DNA of 64,000 nt from Eledone cirrhosa. Its lineage: Eukaryota. The position numbers were made by a program, and so were the translations under genes. This document shows, one piece after another, positions 19,273 through 53,984 of this stretch. The DNA is taken from the NCBI GenBank assembly GCA_964016885.1, contig OZ024760.1:21390001-21454000 (forward strand). Reading direction: 5' to 3'. The notes below the pieces were generated by a model that did not search any database, was not told the DNA's origin, and saw only the letters and a list, made by a program, of their open reading frames with translations. Numbering within the stretch: position 1 is the first letter of the stretch; every line of letters starts with the position of its first letter.

Positions 19273-20777
19273 TATCTATCTGTATTTATGTCTGTCCCAG
19301 TTAACTGACTGATTTCAACGTCAGATTCGTTCAAAACACATTAAAAGCTAAAGTTTATAGGTTAGTCCAGCACTGAGGATACACGTGTTTATGAACTGAT
19401 TGCTCAACCACTTACACGATATTCCGCGGATCAACATCAACTGGAACACTCATCGTTCGACCCGATGGAGATCCAACACACACACTTAACAGGGGAGATA
19501 ACTCTGACTATTCATTCTTGTTTTTGTTCAAAACCGAATTTCCTATTTTTCATTTCGTTATCGTCATTCGTTCTATCCTAGTATTACGGGGAGTGTTGTT
19601 AAACACTGACATTCGCTGACCTCTACAGTACCCACCGGTGGTAAAATGCTCCGGCTTTCAACTCCACCCAGGGTCAACAGTTTATTAGTATTTTAACTGT
19701 TCTCTTGCAACAAATATATTTAACTCTCGACTGGGAATATTTTTTCTTACATTCGAAGGCTTCCAGTTTTCATGGTAACGTACACTCTTTTCAATCTTCC
19801 TCTGTTTATATATATATAAGATGTATGTGTGTATATATATATATGTGTGTCTGTGTGTTGGTATCATTGACAATAGATTTATTTGAGAGAAAATGAAAAT
19901 ATATTGTCGGCCCATATATATATATATATATAATGAAAATATATTGTCGGATGGCTTCACGACCAGTGTTTTCATTTTATCTGGCCTTTATAACATGTTA
20001 ATTGCTCTGCCTTTCTTTTAGTCCATTGAGCGCTTGCCGCATATCTCGATGATTGCGTTTCGTTTTGTTTTTGGCCCCCGCCGAAATACGATCTCGCTGA
20101 AATTATAGTTGTATGTATATATAAATATATATATATATATAATATATGCAGAGGTTATATTTAATTTGTTGGGATTCAACAAGCTTAAACAATTTTATAA
20201 CTGGTATAAAGCACTCAACAAGTTAGTGGAGTAAATACACAATATATTAATAAATGGAAACTATATTTATAAAACCATATTTATTTTATAAAATAAATAT
20301 GGTTTTATAAATATAGTTTCCATTTCTTAATATACTGTATATATAATATATATGTTTGTGTGTGTATATATAATATATATGTTTGTGTGTGTATATATAT
20401 GTCGAAACTCCAGAGCAACAAGACTCACTTTTTATTAAGCCTTAATAAAATGAATATATATATATATATATATATTCATTTTATTAAGGCTTAATATACA
20501 TATATATACACACACAAACATATATATATATATGCATACAAAATATCCGTCGATAAAAACCCGTATATAACATTTTAATTATATATTATTAAAATGTTAT
20601 ATACGGGTTTTTATCGACGGATAAAATTTTAATTATATATATGTGTGTGTGTAAAATTTTAATTATATATATGTGTGTGTATTTGCAAAAACTAAACGGG
20701 ACGAACAAAGCAAACAATACAGTACAACGAAGAAATATGTAAATTTAACGCTTGATATAGTTGGGAAATAGTATATA

Positions 20778-21113
20778 TCATCATCATCATCATTTTGCGT
20801 CCGCTTTTCCCTGCTTGCAAGGGTGGGACGGGAACTGATTCTGGCTTGATTTCTACAGCTGGATGCCCTTCCTAACACCAACCTCATTTACAGTGAGTGC
20901 TGGGTGCTTTTTTGCCGTGGCACCTCCACGACCACTTTGCAGTGGAATGATAGGGACCCCAGTCCCTATCATCTCATTTCTACAGTTGAGTAAACTGGAG
21001 CAATGTGAAATAAAGTGTCTTGCTCAAGGAAACAACACATCACCCGGTCTGAGAATTGAACTCAAAATCTTTCGATTGCAAGGCCAATGCTCTAACCACT
21101 AAGCCATGTGCCT
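20778..21113 (-). mobile_element. SINE family A, full length
   Basis: Near-identical to other family A copies. Confidence 0.9.
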
Positions 21114-24274: not shown

Positions 24275-24602
24275 TCATTTTACGTCTGCTTTTTCCCTGC
24301 TTGCAAGAGTGGGACGGGAACTGATTCTGGCTTGATTTCTACAGCTGGATGCCCTTCCTAACACCAACCTCATTGACAGTGAGTGCTGGGTGCTTTTTTG
24401 CCGTGGCACCTCCACGACCACTTTGCAGTGGAATGATAGGGACCTCAGGCCCTAACATCTCATTTCTACAGCTGAGTAAACTGGAGCAATGTGAAATAAA
24501 GTGTCTTGCTCAAGGAAACAACACATCACCCGGTCTGAGAATTGAACTCACAACCTTTCGATTGCAAGGCCAATGCTCTAACCACTAAGCCATGTGCCTC
24601 CA
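24275..24602 (-). mobile_element. SINE family A, full length
   Basis: Near-identical to other family A copies. Confidence 0.9.
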
Positions 24603-24715
24603 TTATATATATATATATATATAACGAAGGAAATGTGGTAAGGAACCAGGTGGACCATAACGCACCAAAGTACTCAATACTTGAGGTAGTAGAGTGGGTA
24701 ATAGGAACCAGTAAG

Positions 24716-24809
24716 ACCCCGACAGCTGAGCTCAAGCCGTTTCGACGGCTAATTCTGGACTAAATGAACATTTATCCTGGTATTTATATAGCCGATCTTC
24801 TCAAGGGGT
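24716..24809 (-). ncRNA. Type I hammerhead ribozyme, U3-A8 variant (mirror copy)
   Basis: Reverse complement of 26905-26998 with two substitutions in the extended stem II region. Confidence 0.75.
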
Positions 24810-25907
24810 AATTCCATATATGGTCAAAGTGATTGTCAAAAATCAGTAGTAATTCTGTGGTTGCAAATTAGTAGGGGAGATGGTGGCTAAACCTGCCAGT
24901 AGGAGAAAGAGGGGAGGGGGTGGAGTAGACCCAATCAAGCGTTGGTAGTGCCAGCTACAGCTGGGCATGAGGTCAAAGAAGATACAGGGGAGGGGGAGGG
25001 GGAGGAAGTCGGAACGGTAGGTAGAACAATGGGGGGTAGAAATAGGAAAGAAAAAATACTGAGAGTGAAGAAAAGCAAATAAGTGTAAAGAAAAAAGTAA
25101 AGTAAATTAAATTCTACGACCTAGGTGTCAGGCTATTGTTAGGCGAGAATAAAATAAAGAAAGAAAGAAGTAAATAAATAAATAAATAAATAAATAAGGA
25201 AATAAGTAAAAGAACTAGGTGGGACGGAATAGGCAAGGACCCTTTTAAGAGGTATAAGTACGTAAATGATACGGTGACGGGTCAACAAAAGGGGCCAAAA
25301 TACTAAAGAGACTACCACGAAATAAACAATAAAGGTTTCCATCCCGGGCCAGCAACGACCCAGTGCAGCAAAGTGAACTTGTACGAGATAATAATTCTGA
25401 GTCCCGAGAAAAATATATACTAATGCTAACTCTAAAAGATCTAAAACAAGCTACATGAAAGTTCGTACGAAATAAAGGTAGAATACGGAAAAATAAATTC
25501 AGAATCCACCCCGCCCAGAAGAAAAGCGAAGCAAGAAATACTGAAACGAAAAAATAAGGCATAAGTGCCACTAAGAAATATAGAGGGCACAGAGAATAGT
25601 GGGAGCGGTCGGAAAAAGGGGGCAAGTATCCGGGGTCTAAGCCAACTGCTATAAAGGGCGGAATCCGCCAAATCTATCATAGACTAGGGGTGGTGGTGGT
25701 ACTAAGGCTACATGGGGCCAAAGGGCAGCCTCGGGTGGGCGAGAAAAGACTCCGACAAAGGAGAAGAGCTGGGGTAGAAGGACAAAGGAGAGAGGGGGGA
25801 AGGAAATAAAGGAAGCGATAAAAGAATACAAAGAAGATCTTACGTCTTCCTTGGCAAGCAGGGGTTACCCATTGCAAAATCGGCAAGTGGGGTGTTATAG
25901 CCCTAGT

Positions 25908-26012
25908 CTACCCCCCCGGGTCATTATGGGGTTTGAGGGCGAGGTAAGTCCTACGCAATCTATGTTTACATGCAGTAACCAGTTCATCTTTCTTGTTTAA
26001 GAGTTGGTCCCC
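25908..26012 (-). pseudogene. C-terminal remnant of PLE RT/GIY-YIG ORF
   Basis: QLLNKKDELVTACKHRLRRTYLALKPHNDPGG* resembles the LNK+xExxxxC+H tail recalled for Neptune-type GIY-YIG PLEs. Confidence 0.65.
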
Positions 26013-26904
26013 CACCACCCCCTCCCCTAGTCTATGATAGATTTGGCGGATTCCGCCCTTTATAGCAGTTGGCTTAGACCCCGGATACTTGCCCCCTTTT
26101 TCCGACCGCTCCTACTATTCTCTGTGCCCTCTATATTTCTTAGTGGCACTTATGCCTTATTTTTTCGTTTCAGTATTTCTTGCTTCGCTTTTCTTCTGGG
26201 CGGGGTGGATTCTGAATTTATTTTTCCGTATTCTACCTTTATTTCGTACGAACTTTCATGTAGCTTGTTTTAGATCTTTTAGAGTTAGCATTAGTATATA
26301 TTTTTCTCGGGACTCAGAATTATTATCTCGTACAAGTTCACTTTGCTGCACTGGGTCGTTGCTGGCCCGGGATGGAAACCTTTATTGTTTATTTCGTGGT
26401 AGTCTCTTTAGTATTTTGGCCCCTTTTGTTGACCCGTCACCGTATCATTTACGTACTTATACCTCTTAAAAGGGTCCTTGCCTATTCCGTCCCACCAAGT
26501 TCTTTTACTTATTTCCTTATTTATTTATTTATTTATTTATTTACTTCTTTCTTTCTTTATTTTATTCTCGCCTAACAATAGCCTGACACCTAGGTCGTAG
26601 AATTTAATTTACTTTACTTTTTTCTTTACACTTATTTGCTTTTCTTCACTTTCAGTATTTTTTCTTTCCTATTTCTACCCCCCATTGTTCTACCTACCGT
26701 TCCGACTTCCTCCCCCTCCCCCTCCCCTGTATCTTCTTTGACCTCATGCCCAGCTGTAGCTGGCACTACCAACGCTTGATTGGGTCTACTCCACCCCCTC
26801 CCCTCTTTCTCCTACTGGCAGGTTTAGCCACCATCTCCCCTACTAATTTGCAACCACAGAATTACTACTGATTTTTGACAATCACTTTGACCATATATGG
26901 AATT

Positions 26905-26998
26905 ACCCCTTGAGAAGATCGGCTATTTAAATACCAGGATAAATTTTCATTTAGTCCAGAATTAGCCGTCGAAACGGCTTGAGCTCAGCTGTCGGGGT
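26905..26998 (+). ncRNA. Type I hammerhead ribozyme, U3-A8 variant with extended stem II
   Basis: ACCCC-TTGAGAA-GAtCGGCTA...TAGCCGTC-GAAA-CGGCT tgagctc AGCTG-TC-GGGGT; GUC cleavage triplet. Confidence 0.75.
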
Positions 26999-27008
26999 CT
27001 TACTGGTT

Positions 27009-27055
<47 letters not shown>

Positions 27056-27399: not shown

Positions 27400-28920
27400 T
27401 AGAGGTAGTTAAAGTTAGTAATAGAATAATTAAGCTTAGGTTAGTTGTAGGCAATAGACTGCTGACAATCATCTCTGCCTATGCTCCCCAGGCAGGCTTA
27501 GGTAAAGAAGAGAAAGACGGCTTTTACGAGCAACTTTTACAGACAGCCTCAATGACAGAGGACGGAGACATTGTTATGCTAGCAGGAGACTTCAATGGAC
27601 ATGTTGGACAGCTCCAGGATGGATACACTGGGGTACATGGTGGGCACGGTTACGGCTCAAAAAATGAAGAACGAGTGAGACTTTTTGAATTTTGTGATGC
27701 AAATGCACTAACCATTTGCAACGCTAACTTCCAGAAGCTTACCAACCACCTAATAACCTACAAATCAGGCGAGCACATAATCCAGATTGACTTCCTGCTA
27801 GTTAGACGAGACAGACGGATGGTGTCAAATACTAAGGCTTACCCCACAGCATAGGTTAGTTGTTAGTAAGCAAGAGAAAGAATGAGATATACAGGAAGGT
27901 GTGGAAAAGAAATGTCTGGAAGCTAAAAGACCTTTCATTAACATATAAATTTAGCAAAGCCCTTCAAGATGCGTACAACGAAAAAGAAGACGATTTAGAG
28001 TTGTATGACATACATGGTAACTGGAATTTCTTGCGTGACAACTTACTGCAGGCTACTGAAGAAACTTGTGGTTGGGGCAGAGCTTCAACTAGACAGAGAG
28101 TGACCTGGTGGTGGAACAGCAAGGTAGATAGGGCCATTAGAGACAAAAGATTAGAGACATGCGGTATTCCGCATTGCAAAGCAGTGTGTCAGTACAAATC
28201 AGGATGTTGTTGGAGATAAGTGTGTCCGGAATGATGCAGGTGTATTTAGTGTCACGAATGATCAAAAAAAGGAGGCCTGGAAATGTCATTATGAGAGACT
28301 GATGAATGTGGAGAACGAATGGGACAGAGAGGAATTTCCCCCAGTAGACCCGACAGAGGGACCAGCTATTGAGATTGGCGAATATAGGGTACAAGAGGCA
28401 ATTAAGGAAATGAAGAATGGTAAGGCTGCTGGGCTGTCGGGGATAGTTGCTGAGATGCTGAAGGCTTCAGGAGAAGTAGGCACTAAACTAGTTGCACACA
28501 TTAATCAAGCTATGTATGGTGGTGTCATACCCAAATACTGGTGCAGCAGTATTCTCATAAATTGTTACAAAGGTAAAGGGGATGCTCTAGAGAGGAGCAA
28601 TTATAGGGGCATAAAGCTGATGGATCGGGTTATGAAAGTGGCAGAGAGAATAAGCGCAATTGATTAGAGAAAGGGTCAATTTAGATGAGATGCAGTTTGG
28701 TTTTGTGCCTCGGAAAAGTACAACGGATGCCCTCTTCTTAGTGAGGCAACTACAACAGAGGTTCTTAGAGAAGAATAAGCCACTATACTTACCTTTTGTT
28801 GACCTAGAGAAGGCCTTTGATAGGGTACCCCGATCTGTCATCTGGTGGTCCCTAAGGAAACTATGTGTAGAGGAATGGCTTGTGAGGACAGTGCAAGCTA
28901 TGTACAGGGGTGCTGTCAGG
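27400..28920 (+). mobile_element. RTE-clade LINE pseudo-ORF (APE endonuclease plus N-terminal RT)
   Basis: IISAYAPQ, LAGDFNGHVG, IDFLLVRR, TWWWN, KNGKAAG, YKGKGD...NYRGIKL, QFGFVP, FVDLEKAFDRVPR; frameshifted. Confidence 0.92.
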
Positions 28921-29289
28921 GGAGGGCACTGACAACACTCCAGATGTCATGTAGTGAGGGGAGGGCACTGACAACACTCCAGATGTCATGTGAGGGGAGG
29001 GCACTGACAACACTCCAGATGTCTGTGAGGGCTTGACAACACTCTAGATGCCAGGTAGCAGTGGGGGAAGGGCACTGACAACACTCCAGATGTCAACCCC
29101 ACCTCCACCAGTCTTAGTGTTTGTTTGATCTGCCACTCTGATGCTCTGGTCAAGCTGTGGACCTATATGAAGGGGAACCACACCTGTTTACAAAGCACAA
29201 AAGCTGGAGCTGTTTGGGAGGGCAATAGCTCTTAATAAGAACTGCCTAGGACCTTGACACCCTGTCAAACCCATACCGGTATGTAAAAC

Positions 29290-30652: not shown

Positions 30653-30998
30653 GGAGGCACATGGGTTAGTGGTTAGAGCATTGGCCTTGCAATCGAAAGG
30701 TTGTGAGTTCAATTCTCAGACCGGGTGATGTGTTGTTTCCTTGAGCAAGACACTTTATTTCACATTGCTCCAGTTTACTCAGCTGTAGAAATGAGATGAT
30801 AGGGACTGGGGTCCATATCATTCCACTGCAAAGTGGTCGTGGAGGTGCCACAGCAAAAAAACCACCCAGCACTCACTGTAAATGAGGTTGGTGTTAGGGA
30901 GGGCATCCAGCTGTAGAAATCAAGCCAGAATCAGTTCCCGTCCCATCCTTGCAAGCAGGGAAAAGCGGACGTAAAATGATGATGATGATGATGATGAT
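30652..30998 (+). mobile_element. SINE family A, full length
   Basis: tRNA head to (GAT)n tail. Confidence 0.9.
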
Positions 30999-42337: not shown

Positions 42338-42445
42338 ATGAGATTTCAGATGTCTAAGAGAGCGGTCAGACTTGGCCTGTCACTAGGTGGCGCCACCTTA
42401 TTTGCTGCCTACCTCATACCAAAGTACCAACAAGTTACTAAACCG
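42338..42445 (+). CDS. GPD2: Mitochondrial glycerol-3-phosphate dehydrogenase, coding exon 1 (targeting peptide)
   Basis: MRFQMSKRAVRLGLSLGGATLFAAYLIPKYQQVTKP; upstream acceptor at 42289-42290, GTCAGT donor, phase 0. Confidence 0.75.
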
Positions 42446-45760: not shown

Positions 45761-45879
45761 AAGTGGTTGATAAAATAAAGTACCAGTAATGCACTGGGGT
45801 AATTGCTGGCCTTGTGCCAAAAAGTAGAAACAATTGTTAATCTGAAAGCAATTCTTTTTATCACCTTTCACACACTCAG

Positions 45880-46004
45880 GTTTGAAAACTGCGATGATTG
45901 AAAAATATGACTTTGCATCTGGGACCAGCAGCCGAAGTACGAAGCTGATTCATGGAGGTGTACGTTACCTACAGAAGGCTGTCTTCAATTTAGACTATGA
46001 CCAG
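45880..46004 (+). CDS. GPD2: GPD2 coding exon 3
   Basis: [41 protein letters not shown]. Confidence 0.97.
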
Positions 46005-46009
46005 GTAAA

Positions 46010-47012
46010 TATATATATTCATTAGATTATGAACAGGTAAATATATATATATATATATATATACTGTTTCCTGGAGGTGTACATCACCTGTGGAAAGCTA
46101 TCTTTAATTTAGATTATGATTAGGAAAATGTAGATTCTCTTTAAATTATGTACAGGTAAATATATATATTCATTAGATTATGAACAGGTAAATATATATA
46201 TATATATATACTGTTTCCTGGAGGTGTACGTCACCTGTGGAAAGCTATCTTTAATTTAGATTATGATTAGGAAAATGTAGATTCTCTTTAAATTATGTAC
46301 AGGTAAATATATATATTCATGAGATTACGAACAGGTAAATATATATATATATATATATATACTGTTTCCTGGAGGTGTACGTCACCTGTGGAAAGCTATC
46401 TTTAATTTAGATTATGATTAGGAAAATGTAGATTCTCTTTAAATTATGTACAGGTAAATATATATATTCATGAGATTACGAACAGGTAAATATATATATA
46501 TATATATACTGTTTCCTGGAGGTGTACGTCACCTGTGGAAAGCTATCTTTAATTTAGATTATGATTAGGAAAATGTAGATTCTCTTTAAATTATGTACAG
46601 GTAAATATATATATTCATGAGATTACGAACAGGTAAATATATATATATATACTGTTTCCTGGAGCTGTACGTCACCTGTGGAAAGCTATCTTTAATTTAG
46701 ATTATGATTAGGAAAATGTAGATTCTCTTTAAATTATGTACAGGTAAATATATATATTCATTAGATTATGAACAGGTAAATATGTCAGTCCAAACTGTAA
46801 TGTGGCTGGTAATAGGAAGGGCATCTAGCCAGAAAGACCCTGCCAAAAATATTATTCTCACTAATTGCATATACATCCAAGCATGGAAAAATGGACACAA
46901 AAACAACAATGATGATTGTTTAATGGAGATGCATGTTATCTGCAGAAGGCTGCCTTCAATTAAGATTATGAACAGGTAATTACTTATACACATTAGATTA
47001 GAAACAGGTAAA
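46010..47012 (+). repeat. ~147-bp x5 tandem repeat plus relics derived from exon 3 end and donor
   Basis: Unit tggaggtgtacgtcacctgtggaaagctatctttaatttagattatga aligns to exon tggaggtgtacgttacctacagaaggctgtcttcaatttagactatga. Confidence 0.9.
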
Positions 47013-53240: not shown

Positions 53241-53872
53241 TGGTTGGTTGGTTTATTATGATGTTAAGTTTGCTTGGTTAGTGATTGATTTATTATGATG
53301 GTATGTTTGGATGGTTTATGTTTTATTGTAATGATATGGTTGGTTTGTTGATGGTTTGTTTGGTTGGTTGGTTTATTATGGTAAGTTTGGTTGGTTAGTG
53401 ATTGGTTTATTATGATGGTATCTTTGGTACATTGTAATGGTATGGTTGGTTGATGGTTGGTATATTGTAATGGTATGGTTGATTGATGCTTGGTATATTG
53501 TAATGGTGTGCTATGGTTGGTTTATTGTGAGGGTATCTTTGGTATATTATAATGGTATGGTTGATTGATGGCTGGTACATTGTAATGGTATGGTTGGTTG
53601 ATGGTTGGTATATTGTAATGGTATGCTATGGTTGATGGTTGGTTTATTGTGTGGTATCTTTGGTATATTGTAATGGTATGGTTGGTTGGTTGGTTGGTTG
53701 ATTTTAATGTGATGGAAAACTATATGCATACGCACAAGTATATCTGTACACACATCACACATATGTATACATACGCTCATATCTATGTGCTCATGCCCAC
53801 AATCACACACACACAAACACAGACACACACATAAGGAACAAAAGCTAAAAGAGCTCTAATATTGTGTTGCAG

Positions 53873-53943
53873 GTCAACATTAAGATGTTAGGATGAACAT
53901 TGTCCTGACAATGGCTGCTATCAGGATGGGAGGTTCACTGACG
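53873..53943 (+). pseudogene. Partial duplicate (pseudo-exon) of GPD2 exon 6 with intact acceptor
   Basis: tgtgttgcag|GT CAA CAT TAA GAT GTT AGG ATG AAC ATT GTC...; GAA changed to TAA. Confidence 0.9.
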
Positions 53944-53984
53944 CACACACACACACACCACACACACAACACACACACATACAA

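What the first reader, a model, noticed from the sequence alone, without database searches (positions are those of the whole stretch)
24624..27013. 2.3-kb young palindrome is a Penelope-like insertion with inverted pseudo-LTR in (TA)n
Seen: ~990-bp arms with only a handful of mismatches, a ~330-bp spacer encoding LLNKKDELVTACKHR...stop on the minus strand, a unique ~75-bp tail, and (TA)n on both sides. Established: PLE insertions often carry an inverted partial copy of their 3' end. Inference: a recently active family whose read-through from either strand gives a ~1-kb hairpin with one ribozyme near its base, a possible ADAR or Dicer substrate.
Basis: partly seen in the sequence, partly recalled or inferred. 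Interest (0 to 1): 0.75.

Follow-up and report, generated by a model that had tools for sequence, protein, structure and literature searches.

The report
Mirror-shaped jumping gene with self-cutting RNA
This mirror-image stretch is a normally shaped insertion of a very abundant Penelope-type jumping gene, and about one in ten sampled sister copies begins exactly where the element's unusual self-cutting RNA is predicted to cut, which likely records that cut happening in living cells.

Summary
Confirmed. Arms 24701-25700 and 26014-27013 pair at 993 of 1000 bases, with a 77-bp tail, in (TA)n. It is a 5'-truncated copy of a young, very abundant Penelope-like family with Hydra-clade protein motifs (50 of 57 scored full ORFs unbroken; 23,288 exact tail ends). 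The inverted-copy-plus-tail shape is textbook, even within Hydra. The additions come from sister copies. The ribozyme is a type I hammerhead with a U3-A8 core that Rfam and canonical searches miss. Of 61 sampled insertion ends, 43 are ~190-bp mini-palindromes stopping 130-142 nt from the 3' end (a likely RNA start inside the ribozyme's loop II), 6 stop exactly at the predicted cut, 7 are long. Partner arms agree (cut with cut 4 of 4, against 0 of 45), so both arms likely come from one RNA. None of 29 full-ORF copies starts at the stub edge, so long copies like this one likely need uncut or circular RNA. The ADAR/Dicer idea is untested: no RNA data, no edited copies among 182 loci. The scan noted similar stubs in other genomes and one-RNA arms in this genome before.

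The parts
24275..24601 (.). tRNA-related SINE-like repeat whose (TA)n tail is the insertion site (host repeat, not part of the element)
   Evidence: 97% identical copies at 20805-21104 and, inverted, 30653-30992; Rfam tRNA hit inside the copy at 21049-21106
24603..24623 (.). left (TA)n target microsatellite; a target-site duplication cannot be resolved inside it
   Evidence: sequence
24624..24700 (-). 77-nt tail: the stretch between the two fixed outer ends of the family; in tandem copies it runs on into the leader, 94 nt before the ATG
   Evidence: 23,288 exact (TA)-tail junctions in the genome
24624..26010 (-). 5'-truncated element copy, 1387 nt: last 34 codons of the ORF, 3' UTR/pLTR, hammerhead, tail
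   Evidence: co-linear at 97-99% with the best genome copies
24701..24819 (-). hammerhead copy in the left arm; predicted cut between 24721 and 24720
25908..26010 (-). C-terminal end of the Hydra-type ORF (CxH motif after the conserved N), with stop
26010..26010 (.). junction of the two copies, 1-nt overlap; the right arm starts in a C-rich tract where 5 other long copies also start
26010..27013 (+). inverted, tail-less copy of the 3' UTR/pLTR (about 1004 nt)
   Evidence: 7,429 exact (TA)-no-tail junctions in the genome
26895..27013 (+). type I hammerhead with U3-A8 core: stem I 26905-26909 with 26994-26998, core 26910-26916, stem II 26917-26928 with 26960-26970, GAAA 26971-26974, stem III 26974-26979 with 26987-26992, predicted cut after 26993
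   Evidence: minimum-energy fold is the three-way junction; only core position 7 varies in a sister family; sister insertions begin at the base equal to 26994
26924..26953 (+). candidate promoter inside stem/loop II: TATA-like box 26924-26931 and initiator-like TTAGTC with A at 26953 (137 nt from the tail end); inferred, not shown
   Evidence: 43 of 61 sampled arms stop 130-142 nt from the tail end; motif names recalled from general knowledge
27014..27051 (.). right (TA)n target microsatellite

Best explanation
The palindrome is one young, 5'-truncated insertion of a very abundant Penelope-like retrotransposon, likely made when the element's protein cut both strands of a (TA)n target and copied a single RNA molecule twice from two start points 77 nt apart, after which the two DNA copies were likely end-joined head to head. 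Shown: the element, its two fixed outer ends, the pairing of a tail arm with a tail-less arm, and the agreement of the two arms in subfamily and in where they stop. Inferred: priming on both target strands at two internal RNA sites (shown in vitro for a Poseidon element, PMC11167929), one template, joining by short microhomology or fill-in. Three template classes would explain the family: (1) RNA starting about 137 nt before the tail end, inside the ribozyme's loop II, gives ~190-bp stubs (about 70% of sampled ends); (2) RNA cut by the hammerhead gives stubs starting at -96 (about 10%); (3) uncut read-through or re-ligated circular RNA gives long copies such as this one (about 11%). The locus itself is a dead fragment with no known host function.
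For: Family and ORF: 50 of 57 scored full ORFs without stop, 98-100% identical; Hydra motifs; top fold matches are telomerase RTs. Two fixed ends: 23,288 and 7,429 exact junctions, control 0. Of 61 tail-less arms in 60 position-picked loci, 49 have an opposite arm and 48 of these end at the tail end, none at the tail-less end. Inner ends: 43 at -130 to -142, 6 at exactly -96 (two of them in one locus), 7 long, 5 other. Arms agree: cut/cut 4 of 4 against 0 of 45 (Fisher p 4.7e-6), long/long 3 of 3 against 0 of 46 (p 5.4e-5). The cut site was written down, before the sample. All 40 scored of 218 candidates carry the cut/cut junction. Inverted arm pairs differ by a median 2.2 per kb (34 pairs, 27 loci, some duplicates) against 15 per kb between loci; both arms here follow one subfamily at every diagnostic site but one and share a rare allele (3 of 103). 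Junctions show 1-2 nt overlap in 19 of 49, blunt in 7, locally copied fillers in several. L060, L133 and L178 jump to new sequence at -134 to -140. 0 of 29 full-ORF loci start at -130 to -142.
Against: No RNA data at all, so the RNA start, the cut and circles are read from DNA only. The hammerhead has no compensatory base changes in 22 aligned copies of two close families (0 pairs changed on both sides, no excess over shuffles), its fold in this arm is no more stable than shuffles (z -0.31; sister copies -2.2 and -2.5), Rfam finds nothing, and no hammerhead was found in 20 loci of a more distant family. The blunt cut/cut junction can also be read as a 2-nt overlap one base further in, so only the filler-bearing and single-arm cases fix the base. 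One arm difference (24769) matches an allele of a sister subfamily (46 of 114): recurrent mutation, a conversion patch or a second template near the 3' end. Arm similarity could partly come from later conversion between arms. The TATA-like box is weaker in the sister family. One locus has two tail-less arms (L035) and one has two tail arms (L185). The junction of this locus was not confirmed in independent data.
Confidence: 0.75

Rival explanations
1. The stop points are reverse-transcriptase stalls at RNA structure (stem III at -96, stem/loop II at -130 to -142), not RNA ends; the ribozyme need not cut.
For: Both pile-ups lie in a folded region; a third pile-up at a C-rich tract (-1075 to -1081; 5 of 56 other long ends, scan-corrected p 0.016) looks like a stall; the anole hammerhead is dispensable for insertion in vitro and no reads ended at its cut (PMC11167929).
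Against: A stall should act on each arm separately, yet arms agree; a strong stall at -137 should also stop full-length copies on their second pass, yet 0 of 29 start there; the -96 edge is one base wide.
Confidence: 0.12
2. The inverted arm arose after or apart from target priming: fold-back self-priming, or two separate RNAs, or later duplication of one arm.
For: Self-priming was proposed for rotifer Penelope inverted repeats (PMC3846280); one arm difference matches another subfamily.
Against: No palindrome at this junction and the arms are offset by about 310 nt; fold-back does not explain why one arm ends 77 nt short in 48 of 49 pairs; separate RNAs do not explain matched stop points or matched subfamily.
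Confidence: 0.09
3. The ~190-bp stubs are a separately multiplying miniature family and the -137 edge is inherited from one founder.
For: They are the commonest form and similar in size.
Against: Junctions differ from locus to locus in position, overlap and filler; older subfamilies show the same edge.
Confidence: 0.03
4. The palindrome is an assembly artefact.
For: The junction is not bridged in four contig sets from other runs, which cannot show absence.
Against: The arms differ at five bases and one 5-bp indel, and have the family's usual tail/no-tail asymmetry.
Confidence: 0.01

Closest known systems
Hydra clade of C-terminal-endonuclease Penelope-like elements (Craig et al. 2021, PMC8557442; read passages, section 11, and supplementary tables S1/S2 part 2)
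   Same: RT plus C-terminal GIY-YIG in one ~700-aa ORF; RW-basic, DKT, CxCX5C, CxxC and CxH motifs; (TA)n target; hammerhead near the 3' end. Penelope-13_HM is listed with a 966-nt inverted 5'-truncated copy and a hammerhead on both strands, the same shape as this locus. An octopus member (Hydra-1_Obim, 2507 bp) is listed.
   Different: Unit 3531 bp with 1.38 kb non-coding (listed families up to 3045 bp, that one including its inverted copy); tail 77 nt against the usual 30-40; hammerhead core U3-A8 with an 11-bp stem II and 33-nt insert, whereas all 26 Hydra rows in table S2 begin CUGA and have loops of 3-10 nt; tens of thousands of ends.
Poseidon element PAc of the green anole (Frangieh et al. 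2024, PMC11167929; read parts 1-2 of 4 and passages)
   Same: Both target strands cut and extended; two internal RT start sites whose spacing is the tail; AT-rich target.
   Different: There the start sites lie 111-118 nt into the ORF and no RNA ends were seen at the hammerhead cut; here both sites lie before the ATG and genomic copies begin at the predicted cut.
Hammerheads of metazoan Penelope-like elements, including the U3-A8 variant of Schistosoma (Cervera and de la Pena 2014, PMC4209133; read passages and Discussion)
   Same: Type I hammerhead in the pLTR; U3-A8 core swap; proposal of cleavage, circularisation and more-than-unit copying.
   Different: Those are minimal, dimer-dependent motifs described without in vivo evidence; this one has a 6-bp stem III that can close as a monomer and leaves footprints in DNA.
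LINE-1 twin priming
   Same: Two primers from the target give an inverted 5' part from one RNA.
   Different: LINE-1 copies two adjacent, non-overlapping parts of the RNA; here both copies overlap almost wholly and start at two fixed sites.

Membership tests
Endonuclease-positive Penelope-like element | Telomerase-like reverse transcriptase | tested here: met
   Model of the 717-aa ORF (pLDDT 79.6); four best PDB matches are telomerase RTs, E 2e-8 to 3e-7. Pfam and PDB sequence searches found nothing.
Endonuclease-positive Penelope-like element | GIY-YIG endonuclease in the same ORF | tested here: met
   VIY...YIG core read by eye and conserved across 14 of 15 aligned proteins, one being truncated; no profile hit for this protein itself.
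Endonuclease-positive Penelope-like element | Partial tandems (pLTR), inverted 5'-truncated copy, tail on one end | tested here: met
Endonuclease-positive Penelope-like element | Hammerhead motif in the pLTR | tested here: met
   U3-A8 variant; fold, conserved core, stop-point pile-up. Activity not assayed.
Hydra clade | RWK motif and DKT in place of DKG | tested here: met
   RLRWR (relatives RWK or RWR) and SDKTG (definition)
Hydra clade | CxCX5C linker; CCHH absent; CxxC and CxH around conserved E and N | tested here: met
   CNCPDRSIC, one Cys only inside the GIY-YIG core, CNLC..E, N...CKH
Hydra clade | Insertion in (TA)n | tested here: met
   the patterns demanded TA, but copies found without that demand also end in TA
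Hydra clade | Generally under 3 kb, canonical hammerhead (descriptive traits in the paper) | tested here: not met
   3531-bp unit; no CUGANGA core. Hence filed as a Hydra-type variant.
Hydra clade | Groups with published Hydra RTs in a tree; no IFD | not tested
   Published proteins were seen in the supplement and match by eye; no tree was built.
Naiad/Chlamys | Endonuclease N-terminal to RT | tested here: not met
   Endonuclease is C-terminal
Neptune/Nematis/Poseidon | CCHH motif in the endonuclease; DKG | tested here: not met

The most novel reading that the evidence does not exclude
The element's promoter sits inside its own hammerhead. An RNA that starts there carries only the 3' half of the ribozyme at its 5' end and is cut by the complete ribozyme at its 3' end, before the two priming sites, so it can be translated but can only father ~190-bp stubs. 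Whole elements come only from uncut tandem read-through or from re-ligated unit circles. The ribozyme would thus sort messenger from template, and the genome holds thousands of base-exact records of that choice.
Probability: 0.35. Interest if true: 0.75.

Novelty: new variant of a known kind. Interest (0 to 1): 0.5.

Why it matters
How Penelope-like elements make inverted repeats and tails, and whether their hammerheads cut in vivo, are stated open questions (PMC8557442, PMC4209133, PMC11167929). This family offers thousands of independent insertions whose inner ends can be read to the base, a ribozyme whose predicted cut matches one pile-up exactly, and many intact ORFs for an in vitro system. 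The single palindrome flagged is ordinary for its kind; the value lies in the family.

Tried and rejected
Canonical hammerhead search (CUGANGA, one mismatch with a strict stem rule): nothing; Rfam nothing. Idea that the two arms came from different subfamilies: dropped; the statement that all five differences are private was corrected (four are, one is not). Covariation test: uninformative, families too close. Hammerhead scan of 20 loci of a distant Hydra-like family: none found within 1.5 kb. Sequencing runs: no RNA holder listed. RAD reads drop about 50-fold at 24754, but an AATT site lies at 24751-24754, so this was not used; contig word depth of run X1 also drops about 20-fold across 24752-24768, a weak hint only. 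Junction 26010 not bridged in X1, X3, X4, X5, no evidence either way. A-to-G or T-to-C hypermutation: none convincing in 189 and then 363 alignments (two short T-to-C-leaning hits, L060 and L106, reflect subfamily differences from the reference). A genome-wide count of allele agreement between mini-palindrome arms was not obtained. Paper searches for an in vivo record of Penelope hammerhead cutting or two-strand priming returned nothing specific; the library lacks most subscription papers. No earlier scan note matched this family by sequence or place.

Full report
Observation. The palindrome is real: arms 24701-25700 and 26014-27013 pair at 993 of 1000 bases, 313 nt apart, with a 77-bp extra stretch at 24624-24700 and (TA)n on both sides. 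The left TA run is the tail of a tRNA-related repeat with 97% identical copies nearby. The arms differ by five substitutions and a 5-bp-shorter C-rich tract in the left arm, which argues against an assembly artefact; independent contigs neither bridge nor contradict the junction.

What it is. The left 1387 nt, read on the minus strand, are co-linear at 97-99% with many copies in the 3.0-Gb genome (2,453 candidates, 40 scored). Longer copies carry a 717-aa ORF; 50 of 57 scored full-length ORFs have no stop and all are 98-100% identical; the tandem unit is 3531 bp. The predicted structure matches telomerase RTs best; Pfam and PDB sequence searches were blank. The ORF has the motifs that define the Hydra clade in PMC8557442 section 11, and 2,024 relatives were found, the best 120 at 38-53% identity. 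The paper's supplement lists a different octopus Hydra family and a cnidarian one with a 966-nt inverted copy, so the shape is known. A host gene in the window matches octopod GPD2 at 93% in one exon; the host is thus likely an octopod (inference).

Two fixed ends. Exact (TA)-to-tail junctions number 23,288 and (TA)-to-tail-less junctions 7,429, controls 0. I fetched 60 of the first 100 listed tail-less ends by position (contig C1 only; 61 anchors), leaving out of the counts 20 loci picked earlier because they were paired. Forty-nine have an opposite arm; 48 of these end at the tail end, one runs off the fetched stretch. Of 20 tail ends fetched, by my reading, about 9 pair with a tail-less arm of a variant sequence, one with a tail arm, and the rest are single or long older arms. 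This matches the two internal start sites and two-strand extension shown in vitro for the anole element (PMC11167929).

The ribozyme. No canonical core is present. By eye, and then by folding, 26895-27013 forms a type I hammerhead with core UUGAGAA (U3-A8 for C3-G8), GAAA and a GUC cut after 26993. U3-A8 is a described variant in Schistosoma Penelope elements (PMC4209133); all 26 Hydra rows in table S2 begin CUGA. In 20 copies of a sister family core position 7 is the one that changes throughout. Against it: no compensatory changes and no excess stability in this arm.

Where arms stop. Counting from the tail end, 43 of 61 tail-less arms stop at -130 to -142, 6 at exactly -96 (two in one locus), 7 run longer and 5 stop elsewhere. 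Position -96 equals window 26994, the first base after the cut predicted. When the tail-less arm stops at -96 its partner stops at -96 or -95 (4 of 4, against 0 of 45; p 4.7e-6), and long goes with long (3 of 3 against 0 of 46; p 5.4e-5). All 40 scored of 218 candidates carry a cut/cut junction, though that blunt form is ambiguous by one base. The -137 edge falls on the A of an initiator-like TTAGTC, 29 nt after a TATA-like box, both inside stem/loop II (motif names from general knowledge); three loci jump to other sequence at -134 to -140, and older subfamilies share the edge. None of 29 full-ORF loci starts there: 16 start at -272 to -1477 and 13 run past the fetched stretch; several are parts of one array.

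One template. Inverted arm pairs differ by a median 2.2 per kb against 15 per kb between loci. Here both arms follow one subfamily at all diagnostic sites but 24769, share a rare allele, and have the same nearest relative. Four of the five differences occur in none of 103-114 other segments; the fifth matches a sister subfamily (46 of 114). The right arm starts in a C-rich tract where 5 of 56 other long copies also start within 9 nt (scan-corrected p 0.016); a stall on the G-rich cDNA or a second RNA start are both possible.

Mechanism. Likely: the protein cuts both strands of (TA)n, each end primes on the same RNA at one of two sites 77 nt apart, each copy runs until the RNA ends or the enzyme falls off, and the two are joined by 0-2 nt overlap or short fillers. 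Stubs would come from RNA starting at -137 or cut at -96; this locus, with arms of 1387 and about 1004 nt, would come from uncut or circular RNA, as proposed without in vivo evidence in PMC4209133. The steps at RNA level are inferred from DNA alone.

The hairpin idea. A read-through RNA of either strand would fold 987-995 pairs in register and bury 117 of 119 ribozyme bases, so it would be a fine double-stranded substrate but a poor ribozyme. Whether it is transcribed is unknown: the GPD2-like start codon is at 42338, 15 kb downstream, and a non-coding first exon was not looked for. Earlier scan notes report edited Penelope copies in this genome; for this family none was seen in 363 alignments from 182 loci, a sample that favours unedited copies.

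Verdict. The locus is an ordinary long inverted insertion of a new Hydra-type family; the family is of moderate interest because it appears to record ribozyme cutting and single-template, two-strand priming to the base. The scan noted stubs marking an RNA start and a cut in other genomes and one-RNA arms in this genome; my reading of the start was noted, before the look-up. Papers: PMC8557442 passages, section 11, part of the supplement; PMC11167929 parts 1-2 of 4; PMC4209133 passages and Discussion; PMC3846280 passages; bioRxiv 10.64898/2026.07.22.740005 part 1 of 5, whose supplements are closed and were not seen.

Noticed in passing
window 42338-63755, + strand: Ten coding exons of a mitochondrial glycerol-3-phosphate dehydrogenase (GPD2-like) gene, residues 1-493 of an octopod homologue.
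   Followed up: partly
window 46002-46975 and 53872-53946: A 147-bp tandem repeat holds six decayed copies of the 3' half of the GPD2 exon at 45879-46004, and a partial copy of another exon lies just before it: exon ends caught in intronic tandem repeats.
   Followed up: no
window 27400-28930, + strand: Broken LINE with endonuclease and RT fragments right of the palindrome.
   Followed up: no
L133 (G000:C1:27009344-27011144): Three head-to-tail 257-bp units running from -140 to +116 of the element, a retrozyme-like mini array.
   Followed up: partly
L178 (G000:C1:491374-493174): One arm has its outer end at about -141, next to the stub edge, which might mean the edge is a cut rather than an RNA start; single case.
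   Followed up: no
G000:C1:437200255-437213199: Four full tandem units with alternating scores (1818.3, 1813.9), suggesting a two-unit period.
   Followed up: no
L196-L215: A distant Hydra-like family with at least 150 endonuclease matches; no hammerhead found within 1.5 kb by my scan.
   Followed up: partly
window 20232-20345 and 20544-20623: Two short near-perfect palindromes with no spacer, 114 and 80 bp.
   Followed up: no
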